The notes under the pieces: generated by a model
The model's database searches: none
Seen by the model: the letters and a program-made list of their open reading frames with translations, nothing else
What the model was told of the DNA's origin: nothing
Translations under genes and position numbers: made by a program
NCBI GenBank assembly: GCA_030390025.1
Contig: CM059453.1
Coordinates: 3,720,001-3,784,000 of the forward strand
Length of the DNA: 64,000 bases
Origin: Squalus acanthias
Taxonomy: Eukaryota
Direction of reading: 5' to 3'
Part shown: piece after piece, positions 1 to 47,571 of the stretch
Layout: each line of letters opens with the position of its first letter
Position numbering within the stretch: the first letter of the stretch is position 1

Positions 1-18
1 CGATGCTCTGTTTCACAT

Positions 19-3560: not shown

Positions 3561-3855
3561 TGTTTTGTTATTGGTAAATGCTGATATAATGCCTTGATAT
3601 AGTGACCTGTTAGTTGACAGTTTTGCGGGCAGTAACTTGTCTTGGGTGCCAGTGCAAAACTGGCGGTATCAAAACGTCCGCCTGCCCCGCCCGATATTCT
3701 CTTCCGTTGTCATCAATGGAGCTGAATATCTGTCTGTGTGTATAACAGGCGGCCAATGCGATGCCGACCGTTTTGCACGACTGCCGGAGACAAATTTCTA
3801 CCCTCAAATCTTTTTGCTAGAACCGCGCTACCACATGTTATCACATGGTATGACA

Positions 3856-18195: not shown

Positions 18196-18204
18196 CTACA
18201 GGTG
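18196..18204 (-). CDS. Probable terminal coding exon (His-Leu-stop), completing HIYQHL*
   Basis: ctctaactgtatacag|CAC CTG TAG in phase 0, in the first unique sequence beyond the intronic CR1; completes a YxxL motif. The pyrimidine tract is weak. Confidence 0.45.
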   Translation of the reverse strand, partial: HL

Positions 18205-18289
18205 CTGTATACAGTTAGAGCAGGACATACTCTTGCTATTAACGTGTAACTGTTTGACTGTCATGTCAAATCCGAGTGCACGTCTCCAT

Positions 18290-21045
18290 TATTTGGACAG
18301 ACAAAAAGGAAAAGGAGGTGGCGTAGCGCAATTAATAAGGGATGAGATCGGTTCGGTAGAGATAAAAGATCTTGGCTTGGCAGATCGTGATGTAGAACTG
18401 GAATCAGTTTGGGTGAAGCTAAGAAACAGCAAACGGCAGAAAACATTGGTGGGAGTTGTGTACAGGTCACCAAACAGTAGTGGTAATGTAGGGCACAGTA
18501 TCAATCAAGAGATTAGAAGTGCATGTAACAAGGGCAATACGGTAGTCATGGGGGACTTTAATCTACATATTGACTGGGCAAATCAAATTACCACTAATGG
18601 TGTGGAGGAAGAATTCTTGGAATGCATGCGAGATGGTTTCTTGAATCAGTATGTGGAGGAACCAACCAGGGAACAGGCTATTCTGGATCTGGTACTGTGT
18701 AATGAGGAAGGGCTAATCAATAATCTTGTGGTAAATGGGTCTTCAGGGACAAGTGACCATAATATGATTGAATTTTATATTAAGTTTGAGAGTGATGTAG
18801 TCCAATCTGAAACTAAGGTCTTCAATCTAAACAGATGAAACTACATGCGTACGAGGGACAAGTTGGCCATGGTAGATCGGGAGACTACACTAAAAGGTCT
18901 GAAGGTGGACATACAATGGCTAACATTCAAGGAAATAATGCATCATTTGCAACAAACATATATTCCTCTAGGGCATAAAAACCCAAAAGGAAAAGTGATC
19001 CAACCACGGCTAACAAAATAAATTAAAGCTACTTAACTATTTAGTCAAAGGAGGAAGCTTATAAAGTTGCCAGAAAAAGCGGTCAGCCTGAGGATTGGGA
19101 TCTTTTTAGAAATCAGCAAAGGGGGACCAATACATTGATAAAGAAAGGGAAAATGGAATATGAGCACTAACTAGCAAAAAATATAAAAAGGGATTGTAAA
19201 AGCTTCTATAGTATGTGAAAAGGAAAAGACTGGCGATGGTAAATGTAGGCCCTTTACAGTCAGAGACGGAAGAATTTATAATGGGGAATGAGGAAATGGC
19301 GGGGAAATTAAATAACTACTTTGTTTCTGTCTTCATGGAGGAAGAAACAAAAAACCTCCCAGAAATACTAGAAAACCAAGGGTGTGGCGAGAATGAGGAA
19401 CTTAAAGAAATTATTATTAGTAAGAAAACAGTACTAGCAAAATTAATGTGACTAAAAGTCGATAAATCTCAAGGACCGGACGACCTACATCCTAGGGTTT
19501 TGAAAGAGGTGGCCATTGGGATACTGGACGCATTGGTTGTCATCTTCCAAAATTCTATGGATTCTGGAACGGTTCCTGCAGATTGGAGGATAGCAAATGT
19601 AACCCCGCTATTTAAGAAAGGAGGGAGAGAGAAAACGGGGAACTACAGACCTGTTAGCCTCACATCAGTAGTTTGAAAAATGCTGTAATTTATTATAAAG
19701 GATGCAATAACTGGGCACTTAGAAACTAATTGTAAGATTGGGCAGAGTCAACATGGATTTATGAAAGGGAAGTCCTGTTTGACAAACCTATTGGAGTTCT
19801 TTGAGGATATAACTAGTGGAGTAGACAAAGGGGAACCGGTAGATGTGGTGTATTTGGATTTTCAGAAGGCCTTCGATAAGGTCCCACACAAGAGGTTGGT
19901 GAACAAAATTAGGGCACATGGAATTGGGGTTAATATATTAGCATGGATTGAGAATTGGTTAACAGACAGAAAACAAAGAATAGGGATAAACGGGTCTTTT
20001 TCAGGATGGCAGGCTGTGACTAGTGGGGTCCCGCAAGGATCGGTGCTTGGGCCCCAGCTATTCACAATCTATATCAATGATCAAGGACTAAATGTAACAT
20101 TTCCAAATTTGCTGATGACACAAAGCTAGGTGGCAGTGTCAGTTGCGAAGAGGATGTGAAGAGGCTTCAAGGTGATCTCGACAGGCTCAGTGAGTGGTCG
20201 AGAACATGGCAGATGGATTATAATGTGGATAAATGTGAAGTTATCCACTTTGTTAGAAAAAACAGAAAGACAGAGTATTTCATAAATGGTGAAAGATTGG
20301 GGAATGCAGATGCTCAAAGGGAAATGGGTGTCCTTGTACATGAGTCACTGAAAGTGAATGTTCAGGTGCAGCAAGCCATTAGGAAGGCAAATGGCATGCT
20401 GGCCTTCATTGCAAGGGGATTTGAGTGCAGGAGTAAAGAAGTCTTACTCCAATTATATAAGGCCTTGCTGAGACCACACCTGGAGTACTGTGTACAATTT
20501 TGGTCTCCTTACCTAAGGAAGGATATAATTACCACAGAGGGAGTGCAACGAAAGTTCATGAGATTAATTCCTGATGTGGCGGGACTGTCGTATGAGAAGA
20601 GATTGAGTAAACTAGGCCTGTATTCTCTTGAATTCAGAAGAATGAGAGGGGATCTCATTGAAGCATACAAAAAAAATACAGGGCTTCATAGGGTGGATGC
20701 TGGGAGAATGTTTCCCTTGGCAGGGGATTCTACAACCAGGGGCCACAGCCTCAAGATAAAGGGTAGGCCATTCAGAACTGAGATGAGCAGAAATTTCTTC
20801 ACACAGAGGGTGCTGAATCTTTAGAATTCTCTACCCCAGAGGGCTGTGGAGGCTCAGTCATTGGGTATATTCAAATCAGAAGTCGCTAGATTTCTGACTA
20901 GTAAGGGCCTCAACGGATATGGCGATAAGGCCGGTGAATGGAATTGAAGCAGAAGCTCAGCCAAGATTTCATTGAATGGCGGAGCGGGCTCGAAGGGCCG
21001 AATGGCCTACTCCTGCTCCTATTTCTTATGTTCTTATGTTCTTAT
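18290..21045 (+). mobile_element. Decayed CR1 ORF2 to 3' tail
   Basis: GDFN, SDH, YLDFQKAFD and GVPQGSVLGP motifs; (TTCTTATG)3 tail. Confidence 0.93.
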
Positions 21046-21140
21046 GATGCTCTGTAGGAAGGAAATAAAAGTTAAAACACGTTTGATTGGGACCAAATTA
21101 ACTCTGTGGTAGACAAGTGCTCAATGAATGAAGATCTCAC

Positions 21141-21194
21141 CTGGTAGATGTGTTGTGCTGGTATCTGGGGCGGACCGCCACTGCACGGCACGTT
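21141..21194 (-). CDS. Exon 12: cytoplasmic
   Basis: ttcttgtcttacag| ... CAG|gtgag; 54 nt, phase 0-0; NVPCSGGPPQIPAQHIYQ. Confidence 0.75.
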
Positions 21195-22342
21195 CTGTAA
21201 GACAAGAATTGCATAGAAATTATAAAATGGAAACAGGCCGTTCGAAGTACCTGTTCTGTTCCCATATCCCTTTGTTCGCCTTTCCTTCAACCAATGGCCT
21301 AACATATACTTACCAATGCAGTTGATTTATTTTCTGCCTATCAAATATAAAGCTCAAAAGTGACTATCTTATATTCACCTCATGTTATATTGTCATGCAA
21401 GTATCCATCGGAATTTCATTATATAATCACGAGCGCGGATTTCCAGCAAATGGTCAACCCCCGCCCCCCAAACCCCACCATGACCAGCGCGGCCATGTGG
21501 ACAGCCCAATCGTTGGTCACCCTACACCGAACCCCAGCAGAAGCGTTGCTGATCAGACTTTCAGTTCCCTTGTCTGGAGAAACGGACACCATGGGATAGA
21601 AATTGACGCGGGCGGAGACGCATCGGCCGTCTAAAATTGACCCCGGTCGATATTCCATTCCATTCGCTTATAATAGGCGGCGGATTTTCAACACATTGCT
21701 AACAACTTTCCCGTGTCTCGTATTTCTCACTGTAGGAAAACTGCACTGATTGCTCACAGAGCTTGAAATTCGAATTTAATAAAGGGCGAAAATACTGCTT
21801 TCCGGAAGTCCATTCAACTCAATGATTGCAAACGTACCACATATGTATGATGTTCTGACGGGTCTCTCGCCAAATAAACCTTTAAAATTAGAAAAGAATT
21901 GACATAATTAATCAGTATCGATAGAATTTCCGCAACAAAATTCAACCTCGGCGGAAAAGCTGCAGAAATGGGGAAGAGAAATTAAATTGATAGCATTTTA
22001 CGATTTGTAGATCACAAAACCGACAAAGTTAGATCTTGTATGCGTGGAACGATGCCACCTGGGCGGGTTGTGTTCACGACAACGTGAATATGGGGGGGGG
22101 GGGGTGGATTTCCCATAATCAATTTCGAGCCCAACGGTGAAGGTGTTTTAAAGGAACTCTTGCACACTTGATTGGAAGTAGGAAACCAAGGAACATCTTT
22201 TGCTCTGCTTCCGGTGTTGCTTTGACAACCATACAGGATCACCCGTTGGTAATAATACATTTGCATAGACTTTGTTTATTTTGTCTCTAGCATTTCCTAC
22301 ATTCCTATTAAATTCGTTACTGCAAACGAACATAATTCTTAC

Positions 22343-22419
22343 CTGCGCTGATATTTCCTCATAGTGTCGATCGGGATTTGGAGTTGTCTCTGTGTTCAGT
22401 GAAGACCGCGTTGAGGTTT
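22343..22419 (-). CDS. Exon 11: cytoplasmic, contains YEEI
   Basis: ttccttttttgccag| ... CAG|gtaag; 77 nt, phase 1-0; ETSTRSSLNTETTPNPDRHYEEISAQ. Confidence 0.82.
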
Positions 22420-23064
22420 CTGGCAAAAAAGGAAATTGAGGAATATGACTGGAAGTGTGGAGTAAAATTGCATACCTCTCTTCTTATGTACAAATCATTT
22501 AGTCACGCTGGGGAGATGACTGAACAGAACCCTGGCAGCTCTCCAGTATCTCACCCAAGTGGCTGTTTATCGGTATTGAACCTGGAGGCCAAAGGGCGCA
22601 ATTGCAGCCGGGACCTGACACTATCTGCAGCGGATCTGCACACGCGTGTATTCTCCTGAAAGAGGCGCCCAGCACTAATCAGAAACACAAACCTGTGCTG
22701 CACCTTCACCATCCTGCGGCAAGAGCAACAATTTTAGCGCCCCACCGCGGCCTGTTAGGGATATGACTGTATTCACCATAAATAGAGCACTGAGCGCTGG
22801 AGTTCTTGATAGCTCATTGTTGCACGGGACACGCATTTTTGTCATTGACCCCTTCGAAGAGAGATTTGTTCAATATTTACTTCCTGGAATGATTTGTTAA
22901 GATGGCTTGCATTATTTCAATAGTAATTACAGACAATACTAAACACGATTTAGACAAATATTGTTTGTGAACGGTTTAGTGTCAATTACAGCAACCAGCT
23001 GATCCATTGCCACAGAAGTTGAATTTTAGCATGCAATTGTTTCAGATCGAATTTGTCGAAATAT

Positions 23065-23826
23065 TGGCCCAGAAATTGCAGTGTCTGTGATGGCGTACTC
23101 TCAGAGTACACCGCCGAATTCCCTTTGAAATGCCCCGCAGGTTCCGGATTTTCTCCTACGCTTGCGCATGCGCGAAATCCGAAAGTTGCAATCTGTCAAT
23201 ATGCGCGTTGACAAGCCACCCTTGTGGGGTACGAAAAAGCAATCGCTGGCGCAGGTTTGGGCTATTTGCCCAGCGGCTGGCCAGCAATTGCTCATGTAAG
23301 TCTTATGGTTGATGCAAGCTGGCTTAGGGCCTGCTTGCATCAGTGTAAGGGGATATCTAAGGCTTAAATTAAACATGTTTACATCTTAATTTAAGCACAT
23401 ACACGTTACTAAACGAGTTTATGGAAATATTGGCCCCGATTAAATTATTACTGATGTATAAAATTATCAAAACATTATTTTTTATTGAGGTTGTTGCAAT
23501 GAAGGAACTTATGAGTGAAATTGTAATTCTCTACATTGTATGATTATTACATATGGGGATTCCATTGCACATCATTAGGGGATACACTTCGTAAATGATT
23601 GCAATGGAATTCTGCTCATTGGTTGGAGGACCGGACCCACATGATCCCAGGTACGCTTCCGACCCGCCTTCCTCCCTGGGATCCGTGGCCCATTACACAG
23701 CCCTCTGCCTCGAGGCCTGAGACCGCAAGTCTTCACAGCCTGGGTGCCAGAAGGTACTTTCGTAATTCTTTCACAGGGCGGAGACGTACGCAGGAGGTAC
23801 GCCTCCGAACGCAATTTCTAGCCCAC
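23065..23826. mobile_element. Non-autonomous TIR element
   Basis: tggcccagaaattgc ... gcaatttctagccca (13/15 inverted match). Confidence 0.65.
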
Positions 23827-24077
23827 TGTTATTTATGCGTCTCGCTCCTCCAGTTCCGCAGGCGCCTTCAAAATAGTTTAGAAGAATAAAAGTAACCATT
23901 TATTAAGTTCCAGTGCGATCTGTGTCTGGGATGTAGTTTTATTCCCAATTCAGATTCTTTTCATGCAATTTAGACAAACCAATAGAACATTTGCTTCGAG
24001 TAATTTTTACTGGTATATTCGCTCACTCATTCGTTGATTATTCATTCATTGCACTTCATTTTTCATTCATTACTTAC

Positions 24078-24179
24078 CTCGTGTCCGCTTACGGTATATG
24101 CAAAATACCACAAATGATGAAATCGCCACGCCAGCTATGGTTCCAAGAGTTGCTCCGACTATGAGTCCAATATTCACTG
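24078..24179 (-). CDS. Exon 10: transmembrane segment
   Basis: ttattttgcag|CAG (NAGNAG) ... G|gtaag; 102 nt; AVNIGLIVGATLGTIAGVAISSFVVFCIY followed by the RKRTR stop-transfer. Not in the ORF track. Confidence 0.9.
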
Positions 24180-25842
24180 CTGCAAAATAACCCAATAATA
24201 TCTCATTACAATTGTAAGTCAAGCCTTGTAGGAACCATGCAGTGTTAGGACCATCCAGCTTTCTCTGATGGAGTTAGCAGATGGGGCTATTGTACTTTAA
24301 AAAGGCCCCGTGAATCTCAGACTGAATATGAACTAAGGGAATGTTGACAAAATTTTCCTAGTATTAATTGACAGATTGGTAATGATCAATTTGACACAAA
24401 TTTATTAAAGTAATTACTGCGCTTTTTCTTAGTTTAGGTATAAAACAATATTAAATGAAGTGTGAGTAAATGAATGCATAATTATTAGCATTAAACGGAA
24501 AATCCGGTAATTTATTCCCTCTAAATATCGCCATGGAAACAGTTTCATCAACATCGAATATTTAGCTGGATTCTATGCTAGTCATTCCCCACCAAATAGG
24601 CTTTCATCTGCTTGTCCTCCTCTTTAAGTCCCTCAATTGCCCCAGTCCATCTAACGTAACCGTACTCCCACAACCATAGGCTGCATCAAATAGCTCTGCA
24701 CCTTGACTGCTGATTGACTGCCGAGCTTCCCTATCTTACAGCATTGGCTAGTCTTCAAAAGTAGCTCATTGCCTGTGATGCACTTGGGAACATCCTAAGG
24801 TCGTAACAGGCGCTACCTCAATGCCAGTTCTTTCTTTCTTCAATGCCCCCTTCACCCTACGGTAGGAAGCCCAGACTCCAGTCGCTATGTCCCTGCCTCT
24901 AGCATTTCCTTCCAAAATCATTTGTCTCGCCGCCTCCTTGCACGCCGTGCTGAAATGGAGCCAATTTTCCCATCCGGGCCTCCCACATCATGAGCAGATT
25001 GCAAGAGAATTGGAGGTGCAATTCCATACATTAAGGTAAATTTTAAAATAAAGTGCGCACTGCGTGCAGTTTTCCGCAGGGTTAGTGGATGGAATATTAT
25101 GGTAAGCAAGTACCTGGTAAACATCACGAATGATTCCTGTATGCGAAATGTTGACGTCTATATGCTTTTCTTAATCCCCATCCCGCACCTCCCACCACCC
25201 ACACAGACACATACATACAACTTTCTCCTTCCCCCAGAATAGACCTCACATTTTCTTATTCAGAACTCCCAGACTTCGGCGTAGAAATCAGTCTTGGCGG
25301 TAACGCTGCAGTATCCCGTCAGCTGCCTGTTACATCCCCTCCCCACCTCCCCCCAACACACACACACACATATTATATTCCGTTTTATTGAAGTCAAAGG
25401 AACTGATATTTTAAAATTCATTCATGGGATGTTGGCGTCGCTGGCAAGGCCGGCATTTATTGCCCATCCCTGAATTGCCCTTGGTGGTGGTGAGCCGCCT
25501 TCTTGAACTGCTGCAGTCCGTGTGGTAACGTTACTCCCACAGTGCTGTTAGCGAGCGAGTTCCAGGGTGTTGACCCAACGAGAATGAAGGAACGGCGATA
25601 CATTTCCAAGTCAGGATGGTGTGTGACTTGGAGGGGACCTTGGAGGTGGTGGTGTTCCCATGCGCCTGCTGCCCAAGGTGGTCGAGGTCACGGTTTGGGC
25701 AGGAAGTAAAAAGGGCTGCCAATTCGCTTTGATACCATTTCTATCTGATGGTGTGGACCAATTTCACCCCATTACATTAAGGAGAGCTACACAGCACGCA
25801 GGTAGGATGCTGATATTGCCACTTTTGGCTCCAGTGTCTCAC

Positions 25843-26157
25843 CTTGCCCTTCCAAATACACTTCAAATTCAAAGGCTTTCTCTCCAATTGCATTTCTCGC
25901 AAGGCAGGAGTATTTCCCTCCATCCGCCGTTTCAAAACTCTTGATGGCTAATTGAGAAAAGGTGCGGTTTGAAGTGATGGTGAACTTGGTGTCGGACGCC
26001 GTGATCGATGAGTTCCCTTTCGACCAGGCGAAGGTCGCCGGTAATAGTTCGGTAGCTGAGACTCGCACCCACTCGGTTAACGACACGTCTAAGGCAATGT
26101 CGGCATTCAGAGCCACGTTCAAATGCGGCCCGGAGGGTGAAGAGAGCTGGGGTTCAT
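25843..26157 (-). CDS. Exon 9: membrane-proximal I-set-like Ig domain lacking the B-strand Cys
   Basis: gatttacttag| ... G|gtgag; 315 nt; FAWSKG...SQLAIKSFETADGGKYSCLARNAIG. Confidence 0.88.
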
Positions 26158-26729
26158 CTAAGTAAATCACAAGGGTATAAGCAGATTGAAATGTCATTGG
26201 TCTCCTGAGCAAAATGCGAAAGGATAGTTACAGGTCATCACACGCAGGAACATCAGCAAAGAAAGACAGGTAATTAATACTGAAGTAATTAGGGGAGAGG
26301 GGTGATGATTTGAGCTTGTTGGAGCAGTTGGCCATTGCCTGAAAGCCCTTAGGTATATGTTGGTACCTGGTTCTGATTGGCGTATCTGGTTTAGCTTGGC
26401 AACAGCATGGCCATTCAGGTTGTCTAGTGCCTGATAATCCTGTTATAACTATTTACAGGCGAATTATACTCGCAGCACATGTGGAGATTGGATCCCCACA
26501 CGTTTCTTTTCTGACGAACTAGATTTCATTCTAAACATACCACAGGCTCCATCCGACAACCCAACAAAGAAAAAGTATTTATGAGAATGAGTTGATTTAA
26601 CTAGCATATGTAACAGCATTGTACACACACGTGTGAATATATACACATATATATATAGGTGTGTGCGCGCGCGCCATCATAATGCACAAATTCATATAAT
26701 AACAAAAAACAGAATTTTGTTTTACTCAC

Positions 26730-26969
26730 CCAAAGCCAATCTACAAGTCCCTGCGGAGATTACGTGCTGTCCGGTGCACAGTAGTTCCATTGGTGTGTTG
26801 AGATATTTCTTTCCAATGGTGTAACGTTGTTCCTTTGATCCAGTTAGAGTGACCGAGTCAACCGTGAGCGCAATGGTAGTGTTCGGTACCCCACCCGCCC
26901 AGGAGCAGCACAAGTCCAATTGGTCTCCTCTGTCTGTGGCATCACACGTGATCTGTTCTGAAGGTTGCT
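26730..26969 (-). CDS. Exon 8: short Cys-rich Ig domain (VSIG10/VSIG10L-like)
   Basis: ttttgtcctgcgcacag| ... G|gtgag; 240 nt; ITC...LCCSWAGGVP...LLCTGQH...C resembles the CxWxGGxP domain of VSIG10/VSIG10L. Confidence 0.85.
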
Positions 26970-27949
26970 CTGTGCGCAGGACAAAAAATAATCTTCGTTC
27001 ATTGATCATGCTTTTTGCTTCCTTTAATTTAAAGAAATGTGACTTTTGATGGGACCGAATACAGGTTTCCACAGTTGCGTGCAGTCGTTTGTCTCAATGC
27101 CTCAGACTCTGCGCTGAAGATGAACTCGGAGCACATCAAGCTGAAATGAAAAGGGTAAGAGGAGATCTGGAGGAGGAGTTCACAATAATGAATCGTTCTG
27201 ATAATTTAACTGTTGCAAGAATCTCTTTGTGAGATCTTTGATGCCAAATGGCTCGACATTGACCCATATTGGTGGCAATGGTTAATAGTTTACTGAGCAC
27301 AAGCAAGAATCAATGTAATTACTGTATCGTAAGCAGAATTTACAAGGTAAAATTACGAGTTAAAGTACCCCGTTTATTCCTTGGGTAAAAGTCACGGTAA
27401 GAATTGTCTGCAACCATCTGGCCGTGCCTCGGGCCCGTATTCGCCTCTGAGTGTCTCCGAGATTTACTTGAATCCTCCTCAGTCTTCTTCTACACTTAAA
27501 CCCTACTGGTGTCCCTTTCTTATACCATTTCTTTCAATTCAAATCTATGGAGCTTGACCCGAATCTGTCACTCAACTTCTCATCCTCCCCTGATAGGCCC
27601 TCTCACTGCTCCTCTGATCTCACACCGTCCCTCACCTTCTGTTACTTTCCACTGAAGAATACCTATTTCCAGAGATGTTATTTGTGGCTCACGCTCCCCT
27701 TCTTATCTATTCAGTGAAACTCCCTCATCAGTCTGGTTCCTATGGTTGCATAGATTCCCTCCCCAGCTACGGCTTGTTTTACTCAACTTATTAAACTCCT
27801 CTCTGTTCAAGGTATGTGACTTCATGCCTTTTCACTGTGTTTTGTTCAGCTACAGTCTACTCTGATAAAAATGTCAAGCTCATCATTCTTTTTCCCATCA
27901 CTCTTTTCGCTAAGCTGGTTACTTTGCCATGTAAGCTAATTCTAATGGC

Positions 27950-28062
27950 ATCTATATATATATATGTGTGTGTGTGTGTGCGTGTGTGTGTAAGTGTTAA
28001 TAAACAAGTTAGTAACTGCATGTATATATATGTATATATATATATATATATATATGTGTGTA
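27950..28062. repeat. (TA)n/(TG)n microsatellites
   Basis: Direct observation. Confidence 0.9.
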
Positions 28063-29481
28063 TAAAGCAAATAAATGTTAATAGACAAATTATTAAGTAA
28101 ATTGACTATAATCTTACACAAGGGGGGAAACTATTTCCTCCGGCTGGCCTCCGACATTCTACCCTACGTTAACTTGAGGTCATCTGTAACTCTGCCGCCC
28201 GTGTTCGAACTCGCACCAAGTCCCGTTCACCCATCACACCTCTGCTCGCTGACCTTCAATGGCTGCCGGTTAAGCAACGCCTCGATTTTAAAATTCAGAT
28301 CCTTCTTTTCAAATTCCTCCATGGTTTAGCCTCTCCCCATCTATGTCATCTCCTCCAACCCCACAACCGCCCCCCCCCCCCACCCCACCCCGAGATATCT
28401 GCGCGCCTCTAATTCTGGCCTGTTTGAGCATTCCTGATTATAATCGCTCAACCATTGACGGTCGTGCCTTCAGCTGCCTGGGGCCGAAACTCCGGAGTTC
28501 CCGCCCTACACCTCTCCGCCTCGCTACCGTTCTTTCCTCCCTTAAGACGCACCTTAAAACCTACCTCTTTGACCAAGCTTTTGGTCACCTGCCATAATAT
28601 CTCCTTATGTGGCTCGGTGTCAAATTTTGTTATATAACGCTCCTGTGAAGCGCCTTGGGGTATTTTACTATGTTAAAGGTGCTAATTAAATATAAATACA
28701 AGTTGTTATTGGTGTTGTTGTGGTGAAGAAGTCGTCAATCAGAGGCCGTCAGCTTAAAGGTGTTTCCAAATTGGGAAGTTGGATTATTTTTGTGTTACAT
28801 GGAGCGTTGTTGTGCCATGCAATGCCAGAAAGAGTAGTGGAAGCAAATCCACAGTAACTGTTAAAAAGAGAGAGACTGAATATATGATAAAGAAAAAAAG
28901 TATCACTGGGAACGAGTAGGGCTTTGGGACAGAGAACAAGCAAAGCGCCCTGGTGCGAGTGGGCCCCCTTTTGTGCTGAAGTCTCTCTGATTCCATGAAA
29001 ATACACAGGCAATCCAGCTCACTCACCTAACATTAAAACATAAACTGGGAGCATTCTGGATATAGGAGAGACCACAAGCTACACATGACTTCATAAAGGG
29101 GAAATTGAAGCAAAGAAATGCAAAAGAGGCGGGTCAGACAAGCGTCTTGTCGTAATTGAAGATGTAAGAAATATCATGCTGAGTCTTAAATACCGGAAAC
29201 CCTTAAGGTTTATTACTTTGGGTGAGGAACTGGTGAGTTAAGTTCAATGTTCTCCTTTGCCTCCGAAGGACAGATTATTATACATCAAAACCATTCAAAG
29301 TTAGTGCACTCGATCCTCCAGACCACAGCCTACTGATAGAGGGAGAGTGACAGAGAGACACAGAGAGGGAGAGAGAGGGAGATAGAGAGAAGCAGAGAGA
29401 GAGAGTGTGTTAGATACACAAAACCTCCCAACGTAACATGCAACTACGAGGAAGAAGCATTGTCCTTGTCAACTAACTTAC

Positions 29482-29766
29482 TGTATACAAGGATTGAAAC
29501 GACTGAATCGTTGCTTTTCTTGGTATAACTGTTCTCTGCAAAGCAGGTATAATTCCCAGTGTTGCTGAACGCCGCGCTTTGTATCACATGAGTGGATTTT
29601 TTGCCCGTTGTGTCTCCATTGTGCAGCCAGGTGTAGTTACAGTCTGGAACAGACTGAGTCTGACAGAGCAGAGTCACTGCAGCCCCTTCCTTCACACAAT
29701 ACTGTCCCGGGTATTTGCTACCGCACCGCTCGGCAGTGGTACTTGTCTGGGCTGAGTCGGGTCCAT
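29482..29766 (-). CDS. Exon 7: Ig C2 domain starting YGPD (CEACAM B-type), with extra Cys
   Basis: tttcctatttag| ... A|gtaag; 285 nt; YGPDSAQTSTTAERCGSKYPGQYCVKEGAAVTLLC...YTW...GNYTC. Confidence 0.9.
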
Positions 29767-30605: not shown

Positions 30606-30890
30606 AGTAAATCGTTAAATTGACTGCTGTGCTGCGATCACTGCTCACGGCATTCGTGGCTATGCAGATTAACCCTTCACCATCGGATCTGAGCACGGGT
30701 CTGATTGTCAGGCCGCTGTGATCTGCAGAAAGTGTATATCGTGGGTTTTCCGGTAAAGGTTTTTCAGCAGCGCTCCAGGAGTAGGTTGGGGAGGTTCCCC
30801 CGGCTGCACACTTCAGGGTCACAGTATCTTTATCCTCCACAGATCCAACTGACGTTGGACTTATACTGACACTCACATTGGATATCCGAG
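30606..30890 (-). CDS. Exon 6: Ig C2-type domain 4
   Basis: ttttttttacag| ... T|gtgag; 285 nt; VTLKC...YSW...KPLPENPRYTLSAD...LIC. Confidence 0.9.
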
Positions 30891-34770: not shown

Positions 34771-34824
34771 CTTTTAAAAGGCCGCTTTGAATCAATTGCC
34801 AAAGTCTAATATTTCCCCACTTAC

Positions 34825-35080
34825 CAAAAATCTTTAAAGTGACCGCTTTGCCTTGAGCGTTACTCACAGCGTTGCTTGCTGTGCAGACAAACTCTTTGCT
34901 GTCAGTTGTTTTCACTGGTCTGATTGACAGGCTGCTGTTATCTGCAGAAAGTGTGTACCGCGGCTTCCCATCGTAGTTCCACGAATAGGTGGGATCAGTT
35001 CCCTTTGCTGAACATTTCAGAGTCACGTCATCTACATTTTCAGTATATATGTCCTTCGCTGGACTGATACTGATTCCCAC
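34825..35080 (-). pseudogene. Tandem partial duplicate of exon 5 without an acceptor
   Basis: Starts 4 nt after the exon 5 end; lacks the first 14 nt and the acceptor; has a 15-nt deletion (LLKNP); keeps its own G|gtaag donor; out of frame with exon 5 read-through. Confidence 0.85.
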
Positions 35081-35084
35081 TTAC

Positions 35085-35369
35085 CGAAAATCTTTAAAGT
35101 CACCGCTTTGCCTTTAGCGCTATTCACAGCGTTGCTTGCTGTGCAGACAAACTCTTTGTTGTCAGTTGTTTTCACTGGTCTGATTGACAGGCTGCTGTTA
35201 TCTGCAGAAAGTGTGTACCGCGGATTCTTCAGTAAAGGCTTCCCATCGTAGTTCCACGAATAGGTGGGATCAGTTCCCTTTGCTGAACATTTCAGAGTCA
35301 CGTCATCTACATTTTCAGTATATATGTCCTTCGCTGGACTGATACTGATTCCCACGTTCGATACTCGGG
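35085..35369 (-). CDS. Exon 5: Ig C2-type domain 3
   Basis: ttattttgcag| ... G|gtaag; 285 nt; ARVSNVGISISPAKD...VTLKC...YSW...FVC. Confidence 0.88.
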
Positions 35370-36064
35370 CTGCAAAATAAATATTTGTGAAAAATATGTT
35401 CCTGCTGCATTAATATTAACCTCAGTACTTCTTTCTGGTGGACAGGCGTGTTTTTGGAAAGCTTTGTTTTAAAGAATAATATACATGAGTATAGTTTGGA
35501 ACAGAAATATAACTGAATACGGTATAATTCTTCCAATAGGGACCTGACTAAGGAGCGGGTCCAGATGTTGTATTTGTTTGGGAAAAGTTGATGAAATATT
35601 CTTTGCACCGTGATGGTCTTGAGGATGGGTCCAGAGGAATGTGATATTTAACAAGCAGTTTTAAAGCTGGGATATGGGAGACATTGAAAGATGTCCACTT
35701 GAATATTATTGGGGTTAGGAAGTAAAAGATCGCGATCTCTCTCGCGGCTCAATAATTGGGACAGAACACTCGATGGTTTGAATTGAGTCTGAAACTTGAT
35801 GGGCGTTCAAAGGAAAACTGGATTTCAGAGCTCAACATTGTAGGAAACGCGGCAGCCACTTTGCGCAAGGACCTCAATGAGATAATGGGCCGGAATTCCG
35901 ATCTCTACTGGTGTGTACGCGCTGTGTACCCATCGAAAATGTCGGTTTCAGGCATGCACTGCCCATGACAGATCCTCCGGCTGCCCTGGAGAAGGGCCTC
36001 TGCAGGCGGATAGTTCCGCTTTCTAAAGACCCTCCGCCCGCAGAAAACCCTTACAATTCTTACG

Positions 36065-39000: not shown

Positions 39001-40385
39001 TAGCCTAACATCAGTCATCGGGAAAATGCTGGAATCCGTTGTTAAGGAAGTGGTATCAGGGCACTTAGAAAATCATAACATGATTAGGCAGAGTCAAAAT
39101 GGTTTTATGAAAGGGAAATCGTGTTTGAAAAAATTATTAGAGTTTTTTGAGGATGTAACTAGAAGGGTAGATAAAGGGGAAACAGTGAATGTAGTATATT
39201 TGGATTTCCAAATGGCATTCGATAAGATGCCACCTGAAAGGTAATTACACAAGATTAGGGCTCATGGTGTCCGGGGTAATATAATAGCATGGATAGAGGA
39301 TTGGTTAACGGACAGAAAACAGAGAGTAGGGTTAAACGGATCTTTTTCAGGTTGGCAGGCTGTAACTAGTGGGGTGTCACAAGGATCAGTGTTGGGGCCT
39401 TATTTATTTACAATCTATATTAATGATCTAGATGAAGGGACCGAATGTAATGTATCCAAGTTTGCTGATGATACAAAGCTAGGTTGGACAGTAATCTGTG
39501 AGGAGAACACAAAGAGTCTGCAAAGGGATACAGATAGACTAAGTGAGTGGGAGTAAGTGGCAGATGGAGTATAATGTAGGGAAATGTGAGGTTATTCACT
39601 TTGGTAGGAAGAATAGAAAAACAGAATATTTTTTAGAAGGTGAGAAACTTTCAAATGTTGGTGTTCAGAGAGATTTGGGTGTCCTCGTGCAAGAAACACA
39701 GAAAGCTAGCATGCAGGTACAGCAAGCAATAAGGAAGGCAAACGGCATGTTGGCCTTTATTGCAAGAGGGTTGGAGTATCAGAGTAAGGAAGTCTTGCTA
39801 CAATTTTACAGGGCCTTGGTGAGACCACACCTGGAGTACTGTGCACAGTTTTGGTCTTCTTATTTAAGGAAGGATATACTTGCCTTGGAGGCGCTGCAAC
39901 TAGATTGATTCCTGGGATGAGAGGGCTGTCCTATGATGAGAGATTGTGTAGAATGGGCCTATACACGCTGCAGTTTAGAAGAATGAGATGTGATCTCGTT
40001 GAAACATACACGATTCTGAAGGGAATTGACAGGGTAGATGCTGAGAGGTTGTTTCCTCTGGCTGGCGTGCATAGAACTAGAGGGCATCGTCTCAGGATAA
40101 GGGGTAGGCCATTTAAGACTGAGATGAGGAGGAATTTCTGCACTCAGAGGGTTGTGAATCTTTAGAATTCTCTGCTCCAGAGGGCTGTGAATGCTGAATC
40201 TTTGAATATATTCAAGGCTGAGATAGATAGATTTTTGGACTCTCGGGGAATCAAGGGATATGGAGATCGCGCGGGAAAGTGGAGTTGAGGTCGATGATTA
40301 GCCATGATCTTATTGAATGGTGGAGCAGGATCGAGGGGCCGTATGGCCTACTTCTGCTCTTATTTCTTATGTTCTTATGTTCTTA
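36065..40385 (+). mobile_element. Near full-length decayed CR1 LINE (5'UTR, ORF1 with Cys motif, zipper and esterase; ORF2 APE+RT)
   Basis: CxxC...CxxC then leucine heptads; GNSIVRG and HEGNND (degenerate SGNH esterase); ORF2 fragments with stops; (TTCTTATG)n tail. Confidence 0.93.
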
Positions 40386-40660
40386 ATTTGAAATGTTGCT
40401 TTCGGATCTTTTACGTCCACCTGAGAGAGCAGACGGGGTTTAACATCTCATCCGAAAGACGGCACCTCCTACAGTGCAGCACTACCTCAGTACTGCACTG
40501 GGAGTGTCAGCCGAGCTTGATGTGCTCAAGCCTCTGGAGTTGGGATTTCAACCCACAACCTTATGGCTCAGAGGGGAGAGTGCTGCCAACTGAGCCACAG
40601 CTAGCCCTGTTAAATTACCGCTTTGCAACAATTGCCAATGTCTATCATTTCCACACTCAC

Positions 40661-40945
40661 CGAAAATCTTTAAATTCACCGCTTTGCCTTGATCGCTACT
40701 CACAGCGTTGCTTGCTGTGCAGACAAACGCTTTGCTGTCACTTGTGTGCACGGGTTTGATTGACAGGCTGCTTTTATCTGCAGAAAGTGTGTACCGCGGA
40801 TTCTCCGGTAAAGGTTTCCCATCGAATTTCCAGGAATAGATGGGATCAGTTCCCGTCGCTGAACATTTCAGAGTCACGTTATCTACATTTTCAGTAAAGA
40901 CGTCTTTCTCTGGAGTGACACTGATTCTCACATTCGATACTCGCA
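40661..40945 (-). CDS. Exon 4: Ig C2-type domain 2
   Basis: ctttctttacag| ... G|gtgag; 285 nt; VTLKC...YSW...KPLPENPRYTLSADKSSLSI...FVC. Confidence 0.9.
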
Positions 40946-42954
40946 CTGTAAAGAAAGAAAAACATGCTTTTGTATAGCGCCTTTCAGGACGTCCCAAAGC
41001 GCTTTACAGCGAATGAAGTACTTTTGAAGTGTCGTTACTGTGGTAATGTAGGAAACATGGCAGCCAAAATGGCCACAGTACCCTCCCACAAACAGCAATG
41101 GGAGAATGACCAGATAATCTGATGTGGTGATGTCGGTTCAAGGATAAATATTGGCTCAGGACACCGGGGAGAACTCTCCTGCTGGTCTTCGAAATAGTGC
41201 CATGGGATCGTTTACATCCACCCGAGAGGGCAGAGGTTTAACATGTTTTCATTTTGATAGTTTTTGTCGAGCAAACAGAAAGAGCTGGCATTCCATTGAT
41301 CTTAAGTCAGTGCATAACAATAGCTTTTCTCACTCACAGAAGTGTGAGAAAGAAACGCAGGTTATCGGTACCCAACCACTGGATATAAAGCCTCTGCAAA
41401 ATTCTCTCCATCCGTTTTCTAACGCACATGCTCGATCATAGAATCACCCGGTCATAGAATTCACACCATAGGAGGAGGCCATTCAGCCCATTGCACCAGC
41501 GCCTCGCTATTCCTGCCTGTTTCTGTGTAATCACCTCTTGTAATGTGCTTTCGGGACCCTCTCTTCTTGTTGCTCTGTATTTCTCATGCTCAGTACTGTT
41601 GAGCTGAAGCAAGTCCAGTTGGGCACATTTCCCGCAACTGTGGTTGTCTCGGACACTGATAGGTGGGTAAAATTCAACTTTGACGGAGGCGCAAAATGGG
41701 CGCCAGCGCACCGGCCGCTGGTTATACAAACCGACCGATTATCTTACACGTTTATTTCCAAGGGCGGGGTGCATAATCTGCTGTAGATCCGCAAGCGCGA
41801 ATTGAAATTGATCACCACAACTCCCACATCATGCATGTTCCACACAACACCGGTTGTCACTGTGCTGCCGCACTGAATGGCCTCAAGTCGGCTCCGGAAG
41901 TAATAAATAAACTGAAAGTAGCTTCGAACCAACTATTTTTCAGTTTCACACTCCACATCAGGATAAATACGAGTCACTGACTTGTTATCCAGTAATATTT
42001 TAACAGCTATTCAATGAATGAATAAATAAAACGTAATACTTAACCAGCCGCTCTAGTTCACTGCAAACTCTCCTCTGCTACCTACTCACTAGGCTCATCT
42101 CTGGAAAATTGCATTGACTATTCAATTATTAAATCGTAACAACATTTATAATAATCTTTCCATCACTGCAAGCTCTCTCTACGGCTGCAGTTTGACTTTC
42201 TCATCAGTCTCAGACTAGTAGAGGTTGAATTCAGAGTGCAGCCGACAGCCCTGCACCTCTCCCGTTTCTTTTTATACTTTTAGAGATGTGTGAGCAGCAA
42301 TGACATCGTTCACAACACGAAGAAGTCACAATGACACGTTTGTTAAGGTACCAAGATTATCACCAGGCCAACTGACCACTTTTGCAAAACACGGTTTCAA
42401 ACATAGCTGGAATTATTCATACCCTGGAATAAAACATGACGTCACAGAATGATGCAGCTCAGAAGGAGGCCATTCAGCCCATCGTGTCTGAACTTAGTCC
42501 CACTCCCCTACCCGTTCCCCATAACGTTGGAATTGTTTACTTTTCAAGTTAATATACCATTCACTTTTGAAATTTACCGCTCTTTTAGGCAGTGCATTCT
42601 AGATAACTACAATATGCTGCATAAAGAAAGCTCCTCACCTGGTTATTTTGCCAATTATTTAAAATCAGTGTCCTCTGGTGCCAGTGAAAATAGTTTCTCT
42701 ATATTTACTCGATCTAAACGCTTTATAAATTTGAACAGCGCTATTAAATATCTGCTCAACCTTGAAGCCAAGCTCTGGCACAATGTCTCCCAGAGGTGGT
42801 TAAAGACCCCTTTACTATCTACTGAAGTGTCAGATCAGGACTGGATAGCTAAGCTATGCTACCACTTCCTGTCAGTGCACACCCCAACCAGCTTCATATC
42901 AATGAGATGATGGCAGTATTGCGTCTTCCTACAGCTCCCTGTTCTAATGCAGTT

Positions 42955-43548
42955 CCACTCATGGTCTACTCACCCTTTTCAACCCATGTGCAATAATTTA
43001 ACATTTATCATTGCCAAACTGCATTGCAATGTTACCTCTCAATTGAATACCAGGTACAACTAATTTCAAACACCGCTGGTTTATCCTGTCTCTGTTACTC
43101 TCCCTGATTAATGCCCTCAGCATGTTTAATACATATAGACAGTTTCTGTTCCAGTACATTCATGCAGATTGAAAGCATCGTATTCAAGCATTTCGATGGA
43201 CTACAACAGTAAGAATAAGACTTTGCCACATTCGAATTATATGTTCCTGGACAAAAAAATCCACTCATGGTCTACTCACCCTTTTCAAACCATGTGCAAT
43301 AATTTAACATTTATCATTTCCAAACTGCATTTCCATTTTACATCTCAATTGATTACCAGATACATCTTAATTCAAACACCGTCGGTTTATCCTTTCTCTG
43401 CTTAATGCCCTCAGTCTGTTTGATAAATAGGCACAGTTTCTGTTCCAGTACATTCATGCAGATTGAAAGCATAGTATCCAAGCATTTCGATGGACTACAG
43501 AAGTAAGAATAAGAATTTTCCATGTTCGAATTATATGTCCCTGGACAA
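42955..43548. repeat. Diverged ~306-bp tandem duplication in intron 3
   Basis: ccactcatggtctactcacccttttcaa at 42955 and 43261; single copy in the inverted paralog. Confidence 0.85.
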
Positions 43549-43763
43549 AATTTCGATTTGGGTGGGGTGCAGAACAGGCGGTAACGCTTCAATATGACTT
43601 CAATAGAACCGGATATCTGGCGGGGCATATAACAGGCGGCCAATGCGATACCGCCCGTTTTGCATCCCGCCCCAGTCGAATTTCGCTCCGGAGATTCAGT
43701 TGACGGTTTGAGAACTATTATATTGTATAGTTGGTATTTATCAATAGAAATTAGTTTACTCAC

Positions 43764-44048
43764 CGTAGATCTTTACCTTGACTGCTTGGCTCTCGACAGT
43801 GTTCACGATGTTCATTACTTTACAGACGAAGTCTCCGTTATCGGTTGTTTTCAAGGGATGGATTAATAGGCTGCTGTTTTCGGCAGTAAGTGTATACCGT
43901 GGGTTTTCCGGTAAAGGTTTCCCGCCAAAGCTCCAGGCGTAGGTGGGAAAAGATCCCTTCACCGAACACTTCATGGTCACCTTGTCCTCATCTTGTATAA
44001 ATATGTCTTTCACTGGACTGATACTGATACGTGCGTTTGACAAGGGGA
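43764..44048 (-). CDS. Exon 3: Ig C2-type domain 1
   Basis: tttcacag| ... G|gtgag; 285 nt, phase 1-1; VTMKC...YAW...RYTLTAENSSLLI...DNGDFVC. Confidence 0.9.
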
Positions 44049-46992
44049 CTGTGAAACAAAGCATCGGTTCAGAAACTGGTTCTCCGCGCATCGACGCTCA
44101 TCTTGGACTTTAGTGGCAATTTTAACTCACACAGCCCGGCGGAAACCGAAAGGAACGGGAGTTAAAATCGAGCGACTCTCTCTGCTTCCAATTCCACCCC
44201 GAAACAGATTTACCCCCCTTGCTTTTTGCAGGAGCTCAGGCGGACATTGACTCGGGTAGGGGCCTCATTAATATGCTAATCTGGGTCCTATGTGGTGCAT
44301 GGACCCATTTAGTAAAATCTATCAGGAAAGGAACGAAAAGAAAAAAATATAACTTATTTGGCCACCTGGAGGAGTGGGAGTATTTCCATTGGCCCAAAAA
44401 TGACAATCGCACCTCTGATGCCCAGGTACTCCCCAAACCCCCACCTCCACCCCAGTTTCCTGCGCTTGCCAGCAGTCGGCCAGCTCCCTTTTCTCATCCT
44501 TGTGTTGAAATTCCTCCGTGGCCTCGCCACTCCCTATCTCACTAACCTCCACCAGCCCGACAAACCTCCGAGATCTCTACGCTCCGCCAATTTTAGCCTC
44601 TTGTGCACCTCAAATTTCCTTCGCTCTGCCATTGGCGACTGTGCCTTCAGCCGCCTAGGCCCTAATACTGAAATGCCGTCTCTATCCGCTTCTCTACCTC
44701 TCTCTCCTCATTTAAGACGCTCCTTAAAATCTATTTTGATCAAGCTTTTGTTTATCTGCCTCATATCTCCTTAAGAGGCTCGGTGTCAAATTGTATTTGA
44801 TAACGCTCCTGGGACGTTTTACTACGTCAAATGCGCTATATAAATGCAATGTTATTGTTTTTTATTGCCTGCAGTTAGCCGCAGGATGTAAATGAGACCT
44901 GGCCGGTATTCCCACTGAGATCCACGGGTGGGCTGATGCAATTTGGGAAGCTGGTGAGTTTAATTTCCCCCTTTTATTTCTGATCATGTGATGTTGCAGG
45001 CACTTCACTGAAGGAACGTCACCTCACAGTTTGGAAATGTTTGAGGTGCAACGGGTGGGTGTGTATCTTTCACCGCTCTGACACTTACGGCAGCGCGGCA
45101 AGACTTCACTTACGTGGCGAGAATAGAGAAGCTGGGGTTGTTCTCCTTAGAGCAGAGAAGGTTGAGGGGAGATTTGATAGATTTGTTCAAAATAATGAAG
45201 TGCTTCGATAGAGTAAATAGGGAGAAACTGTTTTCAGTGATATAAGGGTCAGTAACCAGAGGAAATAGATTTAAGGTGATTTGCAAAAGAATCAGAGATG
45301 ACATGAGAAATAAAATGTGCAGTTGTTATGACCTGGAATGCGCGGCCTGAAAGGATGGTGAAAACAGATTCAATAATAACTTTCAAAAAGGAATTGGGTA
45401 TATACTTGCAGCGGGGAAATCTTAGACTTGGATCACCTTAGACTTTAGTGGGAATTTTAACTCCCTCCACCCCACGGAAATTGAGCGAAACGAGAGTTAA
45501 AATCGATCAACTCTATTTGTTTCCATTCTTGCCCCGAACCAGATTTAACCCCTTTACTTTTGCTCGGGCTTAGGTGGCCCTTGACTTGGGCAACGGCTTC
45601 AGTAACACGCTAATTTGAGTTCTTTGACGTACATGTCCCACTCAGTAAAACTTATCAGGAAAGAAACTAAATGGAAGTTTGGAACTTAACTTTGACGCCT
45701 GGAGGAGAAGGAACAATCTAGGCCCCAACAGGAATGTATGCACCTCTATTGTCCCGGTACTCAGCCCACCTCACCCAACTTTCCTGACTACCTGCCCAGG
45801 CTGCCCAATCTTCGCTTGCCAGCTCAGGAGAAACGTCTTCACCCACAGAGTGGTTAGAATGCGGAACTCGCTACAGCAAGTAGTTGAGGTCAATACATAG
45901 ATTCGTTAAAGAGGCAGCTAGATAAACACACGAGGGAGAAAGGAATAGAAATGTTACATGAAGACGGGTGGGAGGAGGTTTGTGTGGAGCATAAACACCT
46001 ACAAACACCAGTTGGGCCAAATGGTTGTTCTGAGCTGTACAATTCTATGTGATAAGTCCTGGTTCCTTGGGCATTCGCTGAGGCTGCTCATATTCCTCAT
46101 AGAGGGGCACCGGCTCAGGCCTTCCCTGATTCATTCATGGGATGTGGGCGTCACTGGCAAGGCCAACATTTATTGCCCATCCCTAATTGCTCTTGATAAG
46201 GTGGTGGTGAGCCGCCTTCTTGAACCGCTGCAGTCCGTGTGGTGAAGGTCCTCCCATAGTGCTGTTAGGGAGGGAGTTCTAAGTGTACTTCTTTGCAGTT
46301 TTTTTTTACAACTGAGTGGCTTGCTCGGCCATTTCAGAGGGGTAGTTAAGAGTCAACCACATTGATGTGGGCCTGGAGTCTCATATAGGCCAGACCGGGT
46401 AAGGGCGGCAGATTTCCTTCCCTAAAAGACATTAGTGAACCAGATGGGATATTGCAACAATCCGATAGTTTCAAGGCCACCATTACTGATACTAGCTTTT
46501 TATTGCAGAATTATTTTATTGAATTTAAATTCTCCAGCTGCCCTGGTGGGTTTTGAACTCATGTCTCGGGATTAGTAGTAACAGAACCACTATGCTACTG
46601 TCCCCGCGAACCCAGGGGCAAGTTGTATTCTGCATCACAAGCGATATCTGACCTTTTGCCCGCACGCATTGTTTCGACGGACATCTTGCTTCGTTATCCT
46701 TTTCCCCACCAAATATTAACACAACCAAATTCAAAATACTGAAGGAAGGATTCTTCGGGTTTGAGCGGTTGGTGTCGCTATGAGTATGGGCTAGATCGGT
46801 GGGTTATCAAAATAATTTCACGTAGCTTTGCCTCAAGAAGATTATTGAGGCTTCCCACGTCGAGATGGCCAATAGCACAGTGGGATATTGCGGGTTTTTA
46901 ATATGAGTCGTCCTAATACTTGCAGTAATCGTTTAAGTAGGAAATAAACTAGGTTGTGGTCTGCGGCCTGTGTGATTGAATTCTGTACTCAC

Positions 46993-47313
46993 CGTGTACT
47001 CGCAGTGTGATTTCCGCGGATGATATATATCCGATGGTTATGTCGCTCACCACCACTTGGTACAAACCCGAGTCTTGCAGTGTAACATCATCCAGACGTA
47101 AAGTTCCATTGTTGGTGAAAAGCTCAGCTCTGCCTTTATATGCCGGTGAATACTGTGGATTAGATCCCTGTCCTTTCACTATTAAATTGTTGGTATTGAA
47201 TTTCCAACTTGTAGAAAAACCTCCCGAGACTTCGGGTTTGACCAAAAAATACACGGAGTTTCCGAGAATGCTGTCAATGAGGTTCTCAGAAACAATAAGA
47301 GTGAAAGCGAGTT
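46993..47313 (-). CDS. Exon 2: N-terminal IgV-like domain without the canonical disulfide
   Basis: ttacttacag| acceptor and G|gtgag donor; 321 nt, phase 1-1. ELAFTLIVSENLIDSILGNSVYFLVKP...W...YKGRAELFTNNGTLRLDDVTLQDSGLYQV...LRVH has the DSGxY motif and no Cys, as in CEACAM N and CD2-family domains. Confidence 0.9.
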
Positions 47314-47525
47314 CTGTAAGTAATAAACAACAGAGAGGATCGTCAGTTACTAGTGCTTACATGTGTAACATATTCACGATTATACTTGTAACTAATGCGG
47401 GGATCCGCCCCGTGTGTAAGAACTGAACTCGGGAGAAAACAAACCGAGTAACCGCGAAACGGTCGACAGTTTGCGCATGCGATGCTTTTCCTATGATGAG
47501 GAATGGGATGAACTGTAGAACTCAC

Positions 47526-47571
47526 CCAGGTTAGCGAACAGCAGAAATAAAACGGACAGCAACCTCGCCAT
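47526..47571 (-). CDS. Exon 1 (signal peptide) of a CEACAM/VSIG10L-like IgSF type I receptor
   Basis: cagacATGG Kozak-like context; MARLLSVLFLLFANL(G) is hydrophobic; ends G|gtgag in phase 1. Too short for the ORF track. Confidence 0.85.

What the first reader, a model, noticed from the sequence alone, without database searches (positions are those of the whole stretch)
18196..47571. Intact ~862-aa CEACAM/VSIG10L-like receptor with an unusual eight-Ig-domain architecture
Seen: 12 exons join with canonical splice sites into one stop-free 2580-nt frame: SP, Cys-less V, 4 x C2, YGPD-C2, CSWAGGVP domain, I-set, TM, tail. Known: Cys-less V domains with DSGxY and YGPD linkers typify CEACAMs, whose N domains are bound by bacterial adhesins; CxWxGGxP typifies VSIG10/VSIG10L. 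Inference: a lineage-specific epithelial or immune receptor combining features of both families, in an actively duplicating locus.
Basis: partly seen in the sequence, partly recalled or inferred. Interest (0 to 1): 0.8.

Follow-up and report, generated by a model that had tools for sequence, protein, structure and literature searches.

The report
Shark CEACAM receptor with broken ITAM
This is an open-frame shark gene for a CEACAM-type cell-surface receptor whose layout also occurs in chimaeras, coelacanth and amphibians; it is likely the activating partner of a receptor pair, but a retrotransposon sits in what is likely the exon for the second half of its activation signal, so it would act as a weakened or decoy receptor.

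Summary
The 12 exons are real: GT-AG introns, 2580 nt, 860 codons without a stop. The layout is not lineage-specific. The same V-(A)n-B-X-I core occurs in sawshark, smooth-hound, catshark, chimaera and coelacanth, and the CSWxGG domain in 19 amphibian CEACAM-like proteins; only the A-repeat count varies. The gene is one of four near-identical tandem copies, in opposite orientation to a paralog with repeated YAxV tail motifs, the CEACAM paired-receptor arrangement. The last exon ends Tyr-x at a phase-0 intron, the CEACAM ITAM split. The strong acceptor 89 nt on starts Ser-Ile and is cut after 5 nt by a 2.75-kb CR1 LINE. Beyond the LINE lies DV-H-SDL-stop, against V-Y-SDL in intact ITAM paralogs on the same contig. 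All four copies share this. The predicted product is 865-873 aa with half an ITAM. V exons diverge faster than C exons, but dN/dS above 1 is not significant. No RNA support was obtained and synteny is unresolved. The scan's earlier notes showed no look-alike. Verdict: new member of a known kind.

The parts
47526..47571 (-). Exon 1, signal peptide (46 nt)
   Evidence: same peptide start as sawshark P0001
46993..47313 (-). Exon 2, Cys-less IgV N domain
   Evidence: Pfam V-set; best PDB sequence hit mouse CEACAM1, E 1e-6; model pLDDT 91.3
43764..44048 (-). Exon 3, IgC A-type domain 1
40661..40945 (-). Exon 4, IgC A-type domain 2
35085..35369 (-). Exon 5, IgC A-type domain 3
34825..35079 (-). Partial tandem duplicate of exon 5, only in this copy; no pyrimidine tract before its AG, likely skipped
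30606..30890 (-). Exon 6, IgC A-type domain 4
29482..29766 (-). Exon 7, B-type IgC domain (YGPD linker, extra Cys pair)
   Evidence: best PDB hit CEA
26730..26969 (-). Exon 8, short CSWxGG Ig domain (X), four conserved Cys
25843..26157 (-). Exon 9, membrane-proximal I-set domain
24078..24179 (-). Exon 10, transmembrane helix, no charged residue
22343..22419 (-). Cytoplasmic exon with upstream tyrosine motif HYEEI
   Evidence: compare HYETI in chimaera P0042 and YENI in paralogs
21314..21337 (-).
   Evidence: splice sites kept in copies C and F, changed in D
21141..21194 (-). Cytoplasmic exon ending Tyr-Gln at a phase-0 donor: first half of a split ITAM motif
21034..21051 (-). Predicted present last coding exon: 5 nt of the old ITAM exon, then the LINE tail, reading SIIRT-stop
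   Evidence: acceptor 13 of 15 pyrimidines
18295..21046 (+). 5'-truncated CR1-type LINE (about 2.75 kb), antisense to the gene, shared by all four copies
18261..18294 (-). Likely stranded rest of the ITAM exon (NNGDV-H-SDL-T-stop), His where intact paralogs have Tyr
18196..18204 (-).
54373..64000 (+). 99.6% copy of window 1-9628: edge of the tandem unit, with an inverted stray A1 exon (21-302 and 54393-54674, + strand)

Best explanation
The gene has an open frame for a type I CEACAM-like receptor of the fish/amphibian kind and is likely the activating-type (ITAM) member of a paired-receptor cluster, with its ITAM likely cut in half by a CR1 insertion before the gene was copied four times. Shown: exon chain, domain order, tandem copies, the inverted partner gene G with YAxV repeats, the LINE and what flanks it. 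Inferred: the N domain binds a ligand (by analogy a microbial adhesin or a sister CEACAM) at the tip of a long glycosylated stalk; the ancestral tail carried an upstream YxxI plus a full ITAM split by a phase-0 intron; splicing now ends in YQSI-IRT-stop, leaving two isolated YxxI motifs 23-31 residues apart that could support Src-kinase phosphorylation and uptake but not canonical tandem-SH2 docking. The protein would thus be a decoy or endocytic receptor with weak activation.
For: Open frame and splice sites. CEACAM5/1/6 are the top PDB sequence hits of the V-led profile. The V tree groups it with chondrichthyan, coelacanth and frog CEACAM-like V domains apart from mammalian and caecilian ones (97/99, rough), and the X tree groups it with amphibian CEACAM-like proteins apart from teleost VSIG10L2 (96/100). 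Phase-0 split of YxxL is described as characteristic of CEACAM ITAMs (PMC2832619, PMC5112662). Paralogs at C30 4.42 and 4.46 Mb show TYM | GL-x7-Y(S/N)DL, and chimaera P0004 has YMDL-x7-YHNL. The LINE tail starts 5 nt after the best acceptor; among 11 CR1 tails found in 564 kb only the 4 copies of this one insertion have a strong acceptor that close. Opposite orientation of F and G with 94-97% identity over leader to B domain but unalignable introns beyond is the conversion pattern of paired CEACAMs. F versus G: V exon differs at 48 of 321 nt, flanks at 76 of 2176 (p 6e-14). E versus F and G: 21 and 30 of 89 V residues differ against 24 and 35 of 470 in the five C domains.
Against: No transcript evidence for any junction. 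The remnant match is short: a loose null gives 10% chance, nucleotide similarity to the intact exon is not significant (5-13% of random windows), and the stricter 0.03% null used a motif chosen after the fact. Spacing in the remnant is 5 residues against 7 in intact paralogs, and no target-site duplication was seen. V dN/dS is 1.3-1.8 in E-F, E-G, F-G but 0.5-0.6 in E-C and E-D, none significant. For E against F the V exon (10%) is no more divergent than upstream and intron-2 DNA (9-12%). Variable V positions are not enriched on the CC'C''FG strands (19 of 37 against 21 of 52, p 0.21; p 0.03 only when the BC loop is added). Partner G has a 1-nt frameshift in its V exon, and G's YAxV motifs lack the hydrophobic -2 residue of a strict ITIM. 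Synteny unresolved.
Confidence: 0.62

Rival explanations
1. The gene is a young relic: the frame is still open, but the subfamily has been decaying since the ITAM exon was broken, and the protein is not made or does nothing.
For: Copies C and D have a GT-to-CT change at the leader donor; C has a frameshift in A4; D has about 69 kb inserted between I-set and TM exons; G has a V frameshift; P has a V stop; A and B have stops. Non-V dN/dS among the four copies is 0.58-0.86. Loss of one paired partner is followed by cluster decay in Xenopus (PMC5112662).
Against: E and F keep all exons and splice sites to the last Tyr exon. A-domain exons of E are 96-98% identical to F where surrounding 1-kb windows are 88-95%, which suggests constraint or exon-limited conversion. 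Non-V dN/dS to G is 0.44-0.51.
Confidence: 0.25
2. It is mainly an epithelial adhesion molecule of the VSIG10L kind, with the tail tyrosines secondary.
For: The B-X-I stalk is shared with teleost VSIG10L2; several shark relatives carry the automatic name VSIG10-like; VSIG10L maintains squamous epithelium and desmosomes (PMC12960849, passages).
Against: X domains of VSIG10L2 form a separate clade (96/100); VSIG10L2 P0019 has doubled X domains and lacks the V-A start; the cluster shows fast turnover and three tail types.
Confidence: 0.08
3. One reading: an 862-aa lineage-specific chimera ending in His-Leu-stop at 18196.
For: That join is in frame and has an AG with a branch-like site; it would also give a YxxL.
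Against: Weaker acceptor, 2.9 kb further away; architecture shared across jawed vertebrates.
Confidence: 0.05

Closest known systems
RefSeq/UniRef-predicted chondrichthyan proteins: Pristiophorus UPI00398EF6C0 (P0001), Mustelus XP_078093183.1, Scyliorhinus XP_072325153.1, Callorhinchus XP_042201595.1 and XP_042201587.1
   Same: V-(A)n-B-X-I-TM order; V 51-71% identical; chimaera XP_042201595.1 has the same tail plan with a full ITAM.
   Different: Four A domains rather than 1-3; ITAM exon interrupted by a LINE. P0001, P0003 and P0048 have YAQV-type tails like neighbour gene G, not like this gene.
Xenopus group 1 Ceacams and paired receptors (Zimmermann and Kammerer 2016, PMC5112662)
   Same: Clustered IgV-IgC receptors with inhibitory and ITAM members in opposite orientation, conversion between them, fast N exons; group 1 N domains are said to be closest to those of cartilaginous and bony fish. 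X. laevis XP_041425505.1, named CEACAM1, has the X-I stalk and ITIM/ITSM.
   Different: In Xenopus conversion keeps the N exons alike; here the N exon is the least alike part of the converted block. That the frog hits are the paper's group 1 was not checked: supplements were not seen.
Human CEACAM3 / CEACAM1 pair
   Same: Cys-less N domain, A/B IgC exons, YxxL split by phase-0 introns, top PDB sequence hits.
   Different: Mammalian hits show V, A and B only, no X-I stalk; V groups apart; ligand unknown here.
VSIG10L2 of teleosts (XP_076744910.1, XP_035383022.1)
   Same: YGPD B domain followed by CSWxGG domain and a membrane-proximal I-set domain.
   Different: Doubled X domains, repeated module, extra C-terminal domain, no ITAM; separate X clade.

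Membership tests
CEACAM family | N-terminal IgV domain without the disulfide, with Arg-Asp salt-bridge residues | tested here: met
   No Cys; R61 and D80 invariant in 19 rows; feature as in PMC4079198; V fold model
CEACAM family | One exon per Ig domain, phase 1, A- and B-type IgC domains | tested here: met
CEACAM family | Best sequence matches among characterised proteins are CEACAMs | tested here: met
   single-domain scores are weak (V: E 1e-6)
CEACAM family | N-domain fold closer to CEACAM than to other V domains | tested here: inconclusive
   CEACAM7 N Z 14.3, rmsd 2.2, 102 aligned, rank 34; top Z 15.7 is a generic V domain
CEACAM family | Synteny with LIPE, BCL3, TOMM40, XRCC1, CNFN, TMEM145 | tested here: inconclusive
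   LIPE on C3472 and XRCC1 on C2295; no Porin_3 or TMEM145-family hit on C30; PLAC8 search blank; 138 of 194 flank ORFs scanned gave no marker
CEACAM ITAM-type paired receptor | YxxL split by a phase-0 intron | tested here: met
   HIYQ | SI; intact analogues; definition
CEACAM ITAM-type paired receptor | Complete ITAM, YxxL/I-x6-8-YxxL/I | tested here: not met
   LINE in the exon and His at the second Tyr position in 4 of 4 copies; no convincing other completing exon among 31 relaxed candidates
CEACAM ITAM-type paired receptor | Inhibitory partner in opposite orientation with a closely similar N domain | tested here: inconclusive
   G is inverted and 94-97% alike to F over leader to B, but V is 63-66% identical in residues, frameshifted, and its motifs are not strict ITIMs
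CEACAM ITAM-type paired receptor | Binds a pathogen adhesin and triggers uptake | not testable with these tools
   needs experiment
VSIG10L / VSIG10L2 | CSWxGGxP Ig domain after a YGPD domain | tested here: met
VSIG10L / VSIG10L2 | Groups with VSIG10L2 in the X-domain tree and shares its doubled-X layout | tested here: not met

The most novel reading that the evidence does not exclude
Sharks already ran a full CEACAM arms-race kit in one cluster: inhibitory-type, ITAM-type and stop-in-TM (GPI-like) members on an ancestral long stalk shared with VSIG10L2 and lost in mammals; and here a LINE insertion turned the activating receptor into a half-ITAM decoy that was then selected, amplified fourfold and given diverging N domains.
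Probability: 0.25. Interest if true: 0.65.

Novelty: new member of a known kind. Interest (0 to 1): 0.4.

Why it matters
The papers found report cartilaginous-fish CEACAMs only from skate ESTs (PMC3628338, PMC4079198, passages). This cluster shows the paired-receptor layout known from frogs, reptiles and mammals in a shark, which would date it to the first jawed vertebrates. It also ties the CEACAM and VSIG10L2 stalks together and gives a dated natural case of a LINE editing a receptor's signalling tail. The single gene is not architecturally new.

Tried and rejected
RNA: no RNA holder listed. Four contig sets laid on 9700-27100 gave mostly repeat signal; one X1 contig covered the I-set exon at about 88% and one X4 contig lay at 18001-18230, neither with a splice joint; on 21100-22500 only a 90-nt repeat patch was covered. 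Uninformative either way. Word-indexed homolog searches with single exons found none. The Atlas did not hold the X domain. Synteny marker searches were uninformative; the flank ORF scan (138 of 194 candidates) gave only retroelement domains, one Pro-rich and one GBP_C weak hit. Other terminal exons (18140, 11488, 20512 inside the LINE) were rejected: no ITAM completion or not conserved among copies. Inclusion of the partial exon 34825-35079 keeps the frame but lacks a pyrimidine tract. No uninterrupted copy of the terminal exon exists among 4 of 4 genome matches. Assembly artefact for the tandem copies was considered: mosaic 88-100% identity and copy-specific lesions argue against, but no DNA reads were available. 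Literature: 'CEACAM + cartilaginous fish + shark' (16 papers, 15 listed), 'CEACAM + elephant shark + ITAM' (1), 'carcinoembryonic antigen + chondrichthyan + gene cluster + genome' (0) showed no description of a shark CEACAM cluster; subscription journals are not covered. No complex was predicted: no candidate ligand.

Full report
Setting. The window is G000:C30:3720001-3784000 of a 3.7-Gb genome, rich in CR1- and Penelope-like repeats (class names from my knowledge). Its closest protein relatives are from sharks, so I call it shark.

Observation. The order is leader, Cys-less V, four A-type IgC domains (46-76% identical to each other), a B-type YGPD domain, a 79-residue CSWAGG domain (X), an I-set domain, TM and tail, with 13 N-glycosylation sequons. 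Pfam recognised 7 of the 8 Ig exons. X had no hit but folds as a short Ig sandwich. A 24-nt in-frame tail exon was missed, and a partial duplicate of the third A exon is present only in this copy.

Family. A profile of eight X domains from this genome found 40 representatives. I looked up names for 29 of them: 5 chondrichthyan, 1 coelacanth, 19 amphibian and 4 teleost, none amniote. Profile parsing gave V-(A)n-B-X-I with n = 3 in sawshark, 2 in smooth-hound and chimaera, 1 in catshark and coelacanth; amphibian proteins mostly have V-A-A-X-I; the mammalian CEACAM hits have only V, A and B. In this genome n is 2, 4, 5 or 6. Lizard CEACAM1 has 4 to 16 IgC exons (PMC13278318, passages). So eight Ig domains is a repeat count, not a new design. 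CEA, CEACAM1 and CEACAM6 lead the PDB sequence hits. The V tree (28 rows, bootstrap not settled) sets the gene with chondrichthyan, coelacanth and frog V domains; the X tree (39 rows) separates these from teleost VSIG10L2 at 96/100. This fits the group 1 Ceacams of Xenopus, said to be closest to fish CEACAMs (PMC5112662, parts 1-4 of 6 and passages read). Synteny could not be settled.

Cluster. The V exon has 34 matches in the genome, 20 on C30 between 3.50 and 4.92 Mb; X has 10. Around the window lie four same-strand copies with this tail (C, D, E = this gene, F), a fragment P, the inverted gene G whose leader is 2.5 kb from that of F, and genes A, B and H (C29) with a stop at the end of the TM exon. 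G continues into 57-nt exons carrying YANV, YAQV, YAQV and YARV and matches the sawshark tail. Only E and F are open throughout; C and D have lost the leader donor, C has a frameshift, D a 69-kb interruption, G a 1-nt V frameshift. F and G are 94-97% alike from leader to B domain, introns included, and do not align in introns beyond, which suggests conversion between inverted partners.

Tail. CEACAM ITAMs have this split (PMC2832619 and PMC5112662, passages). Chimaera P0004 reads YMDL-x7-YHNL and its sister model P0042 diverges right after YM, as read-through at such an intron would (inference). Paralogs on the same contig show it in DNA: an exon ending TYM, a short intron, then GL-x7-YSDL or YNDL (intact at 4.42 and 4.46 Mb, with a stop at 4.40 Mb). 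In the window the acceptor at 21051 (13 of 15 pyrimidines, equal to the best of the gene's 12) gives Ser-Ile, and a CR1 tail begins 5 nt later. At the far end of the 2.75-kb element the same frame reads NNGDV-H-SDL-T-stop. All four copies share the element (97.5-99.3% identical) and the His; C also has a stop there. I read this as the old ITAM exon, split and mutated. The chance of such a remnant is 10% under a loose pattern and 0.03% under a post-hoc one, and DNA similarity to the intact exon is not significant, so this step is likely, not proven. The predicted product ends HIYQSIIRT at 865 or 873 residues.

Selection. V differs from paralogs far more than the C domains do. Between F and G the V exon is four times as divergent as its flanks, with 38 nonsynonymous and 8 synonymous changes. 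For E the picture is weaker: against F the V exon matches flank divergence, dN/dS values run from 0.5 to 1.8 and none is significant, and changes are not clearly on the ligand face. Diversifying selection or exon-limited conversion from other donors is suggested, not shown.

Mechanism. Most likely an ITAM-type CEACAM receptor with a halved ITAM, acting as a decoy or uptake receptor beside an inhibitory-type partner (0.62). A decaying relic is the main rival (0.25). Expression is untested: no RNA holder was listed.

Literature seen. PMC4079198, PMC3628338, PMC12960849, PMC13278318, PMC2832619: passages only. PMC5112662: parts 1-4 of 6 plus passages. Supplements not seen; they bear on the group 1 assignment. 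Three searches found no account of a shark CEACAM cluster. Earlier scan notes gave one lead, a Siglec-like gene 2.8 Mb further along C30, which I did not test, and no look-alike of the B domain.

Verdict. Real gene, known family, ordinary architecture for non-amniote jawed vertebrates; the paired-receptor cluster and the LINE-broken ITAM are the parts worth a second look. Interest 0.4.

Noticed in passing
G000:C30:3404536-3404634, 3514424-3514522; C29:19615822-19615923 (L065, L046, L074): Three paralogs have a stop right after the hydrophobic TM stretch and no donor, as in the origin of GPI-anchored primate CEACAMs (PMC2832619); A and B also carry stops in Ig exons, the C29 gene showed none in the exons read.
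   Followed up: partly
G000:C30:3832445-3900720 (L031-L038): Gene G: ten Ig exons (A1-A2 pair duplicated), tail of repeated 57-nt exons with YAxV motifs, head to head with F; 1-nt frameshift near the end of its V exon, real or assembly error unknown.
   Followed up: partly
G000:C30:4195001-4475000 (L079, L080, L144-L163): A second CEACAM subfamily with V-A-B repeats or V-A-TM and intact split ITAM exons; its V type is also used by genes A, B and H on the X-I stalk, which suggests N-domain swapping between subfamilies.
   Followed up: partly
L112:1334-5959 and L115:27-8002 (C30 3.24-3.28 Mb): Two retrovirus-like or LTR elements with RT, RNase H and integrase domains and a further long ORF; observed only.
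   Followed up: no
L123:2043-2456 (-): ORF with a guanylate-binding protein C-terminal domain (E 2e-8) at the left edge of the cluster.
   Followed up: no
window 1-1844 and 53334-56216 (+): Inverted 86-88% copies of the A1 exon region (window 41969-45077) sit between the tandem genes.
   Followed up: partly
G000:C3362, C3351, C1010, C392: Small contigs carry near-copies of C30 and C29 family exons; may be alternate haplotypes or unplaced cluster parts.
   Followed up: no
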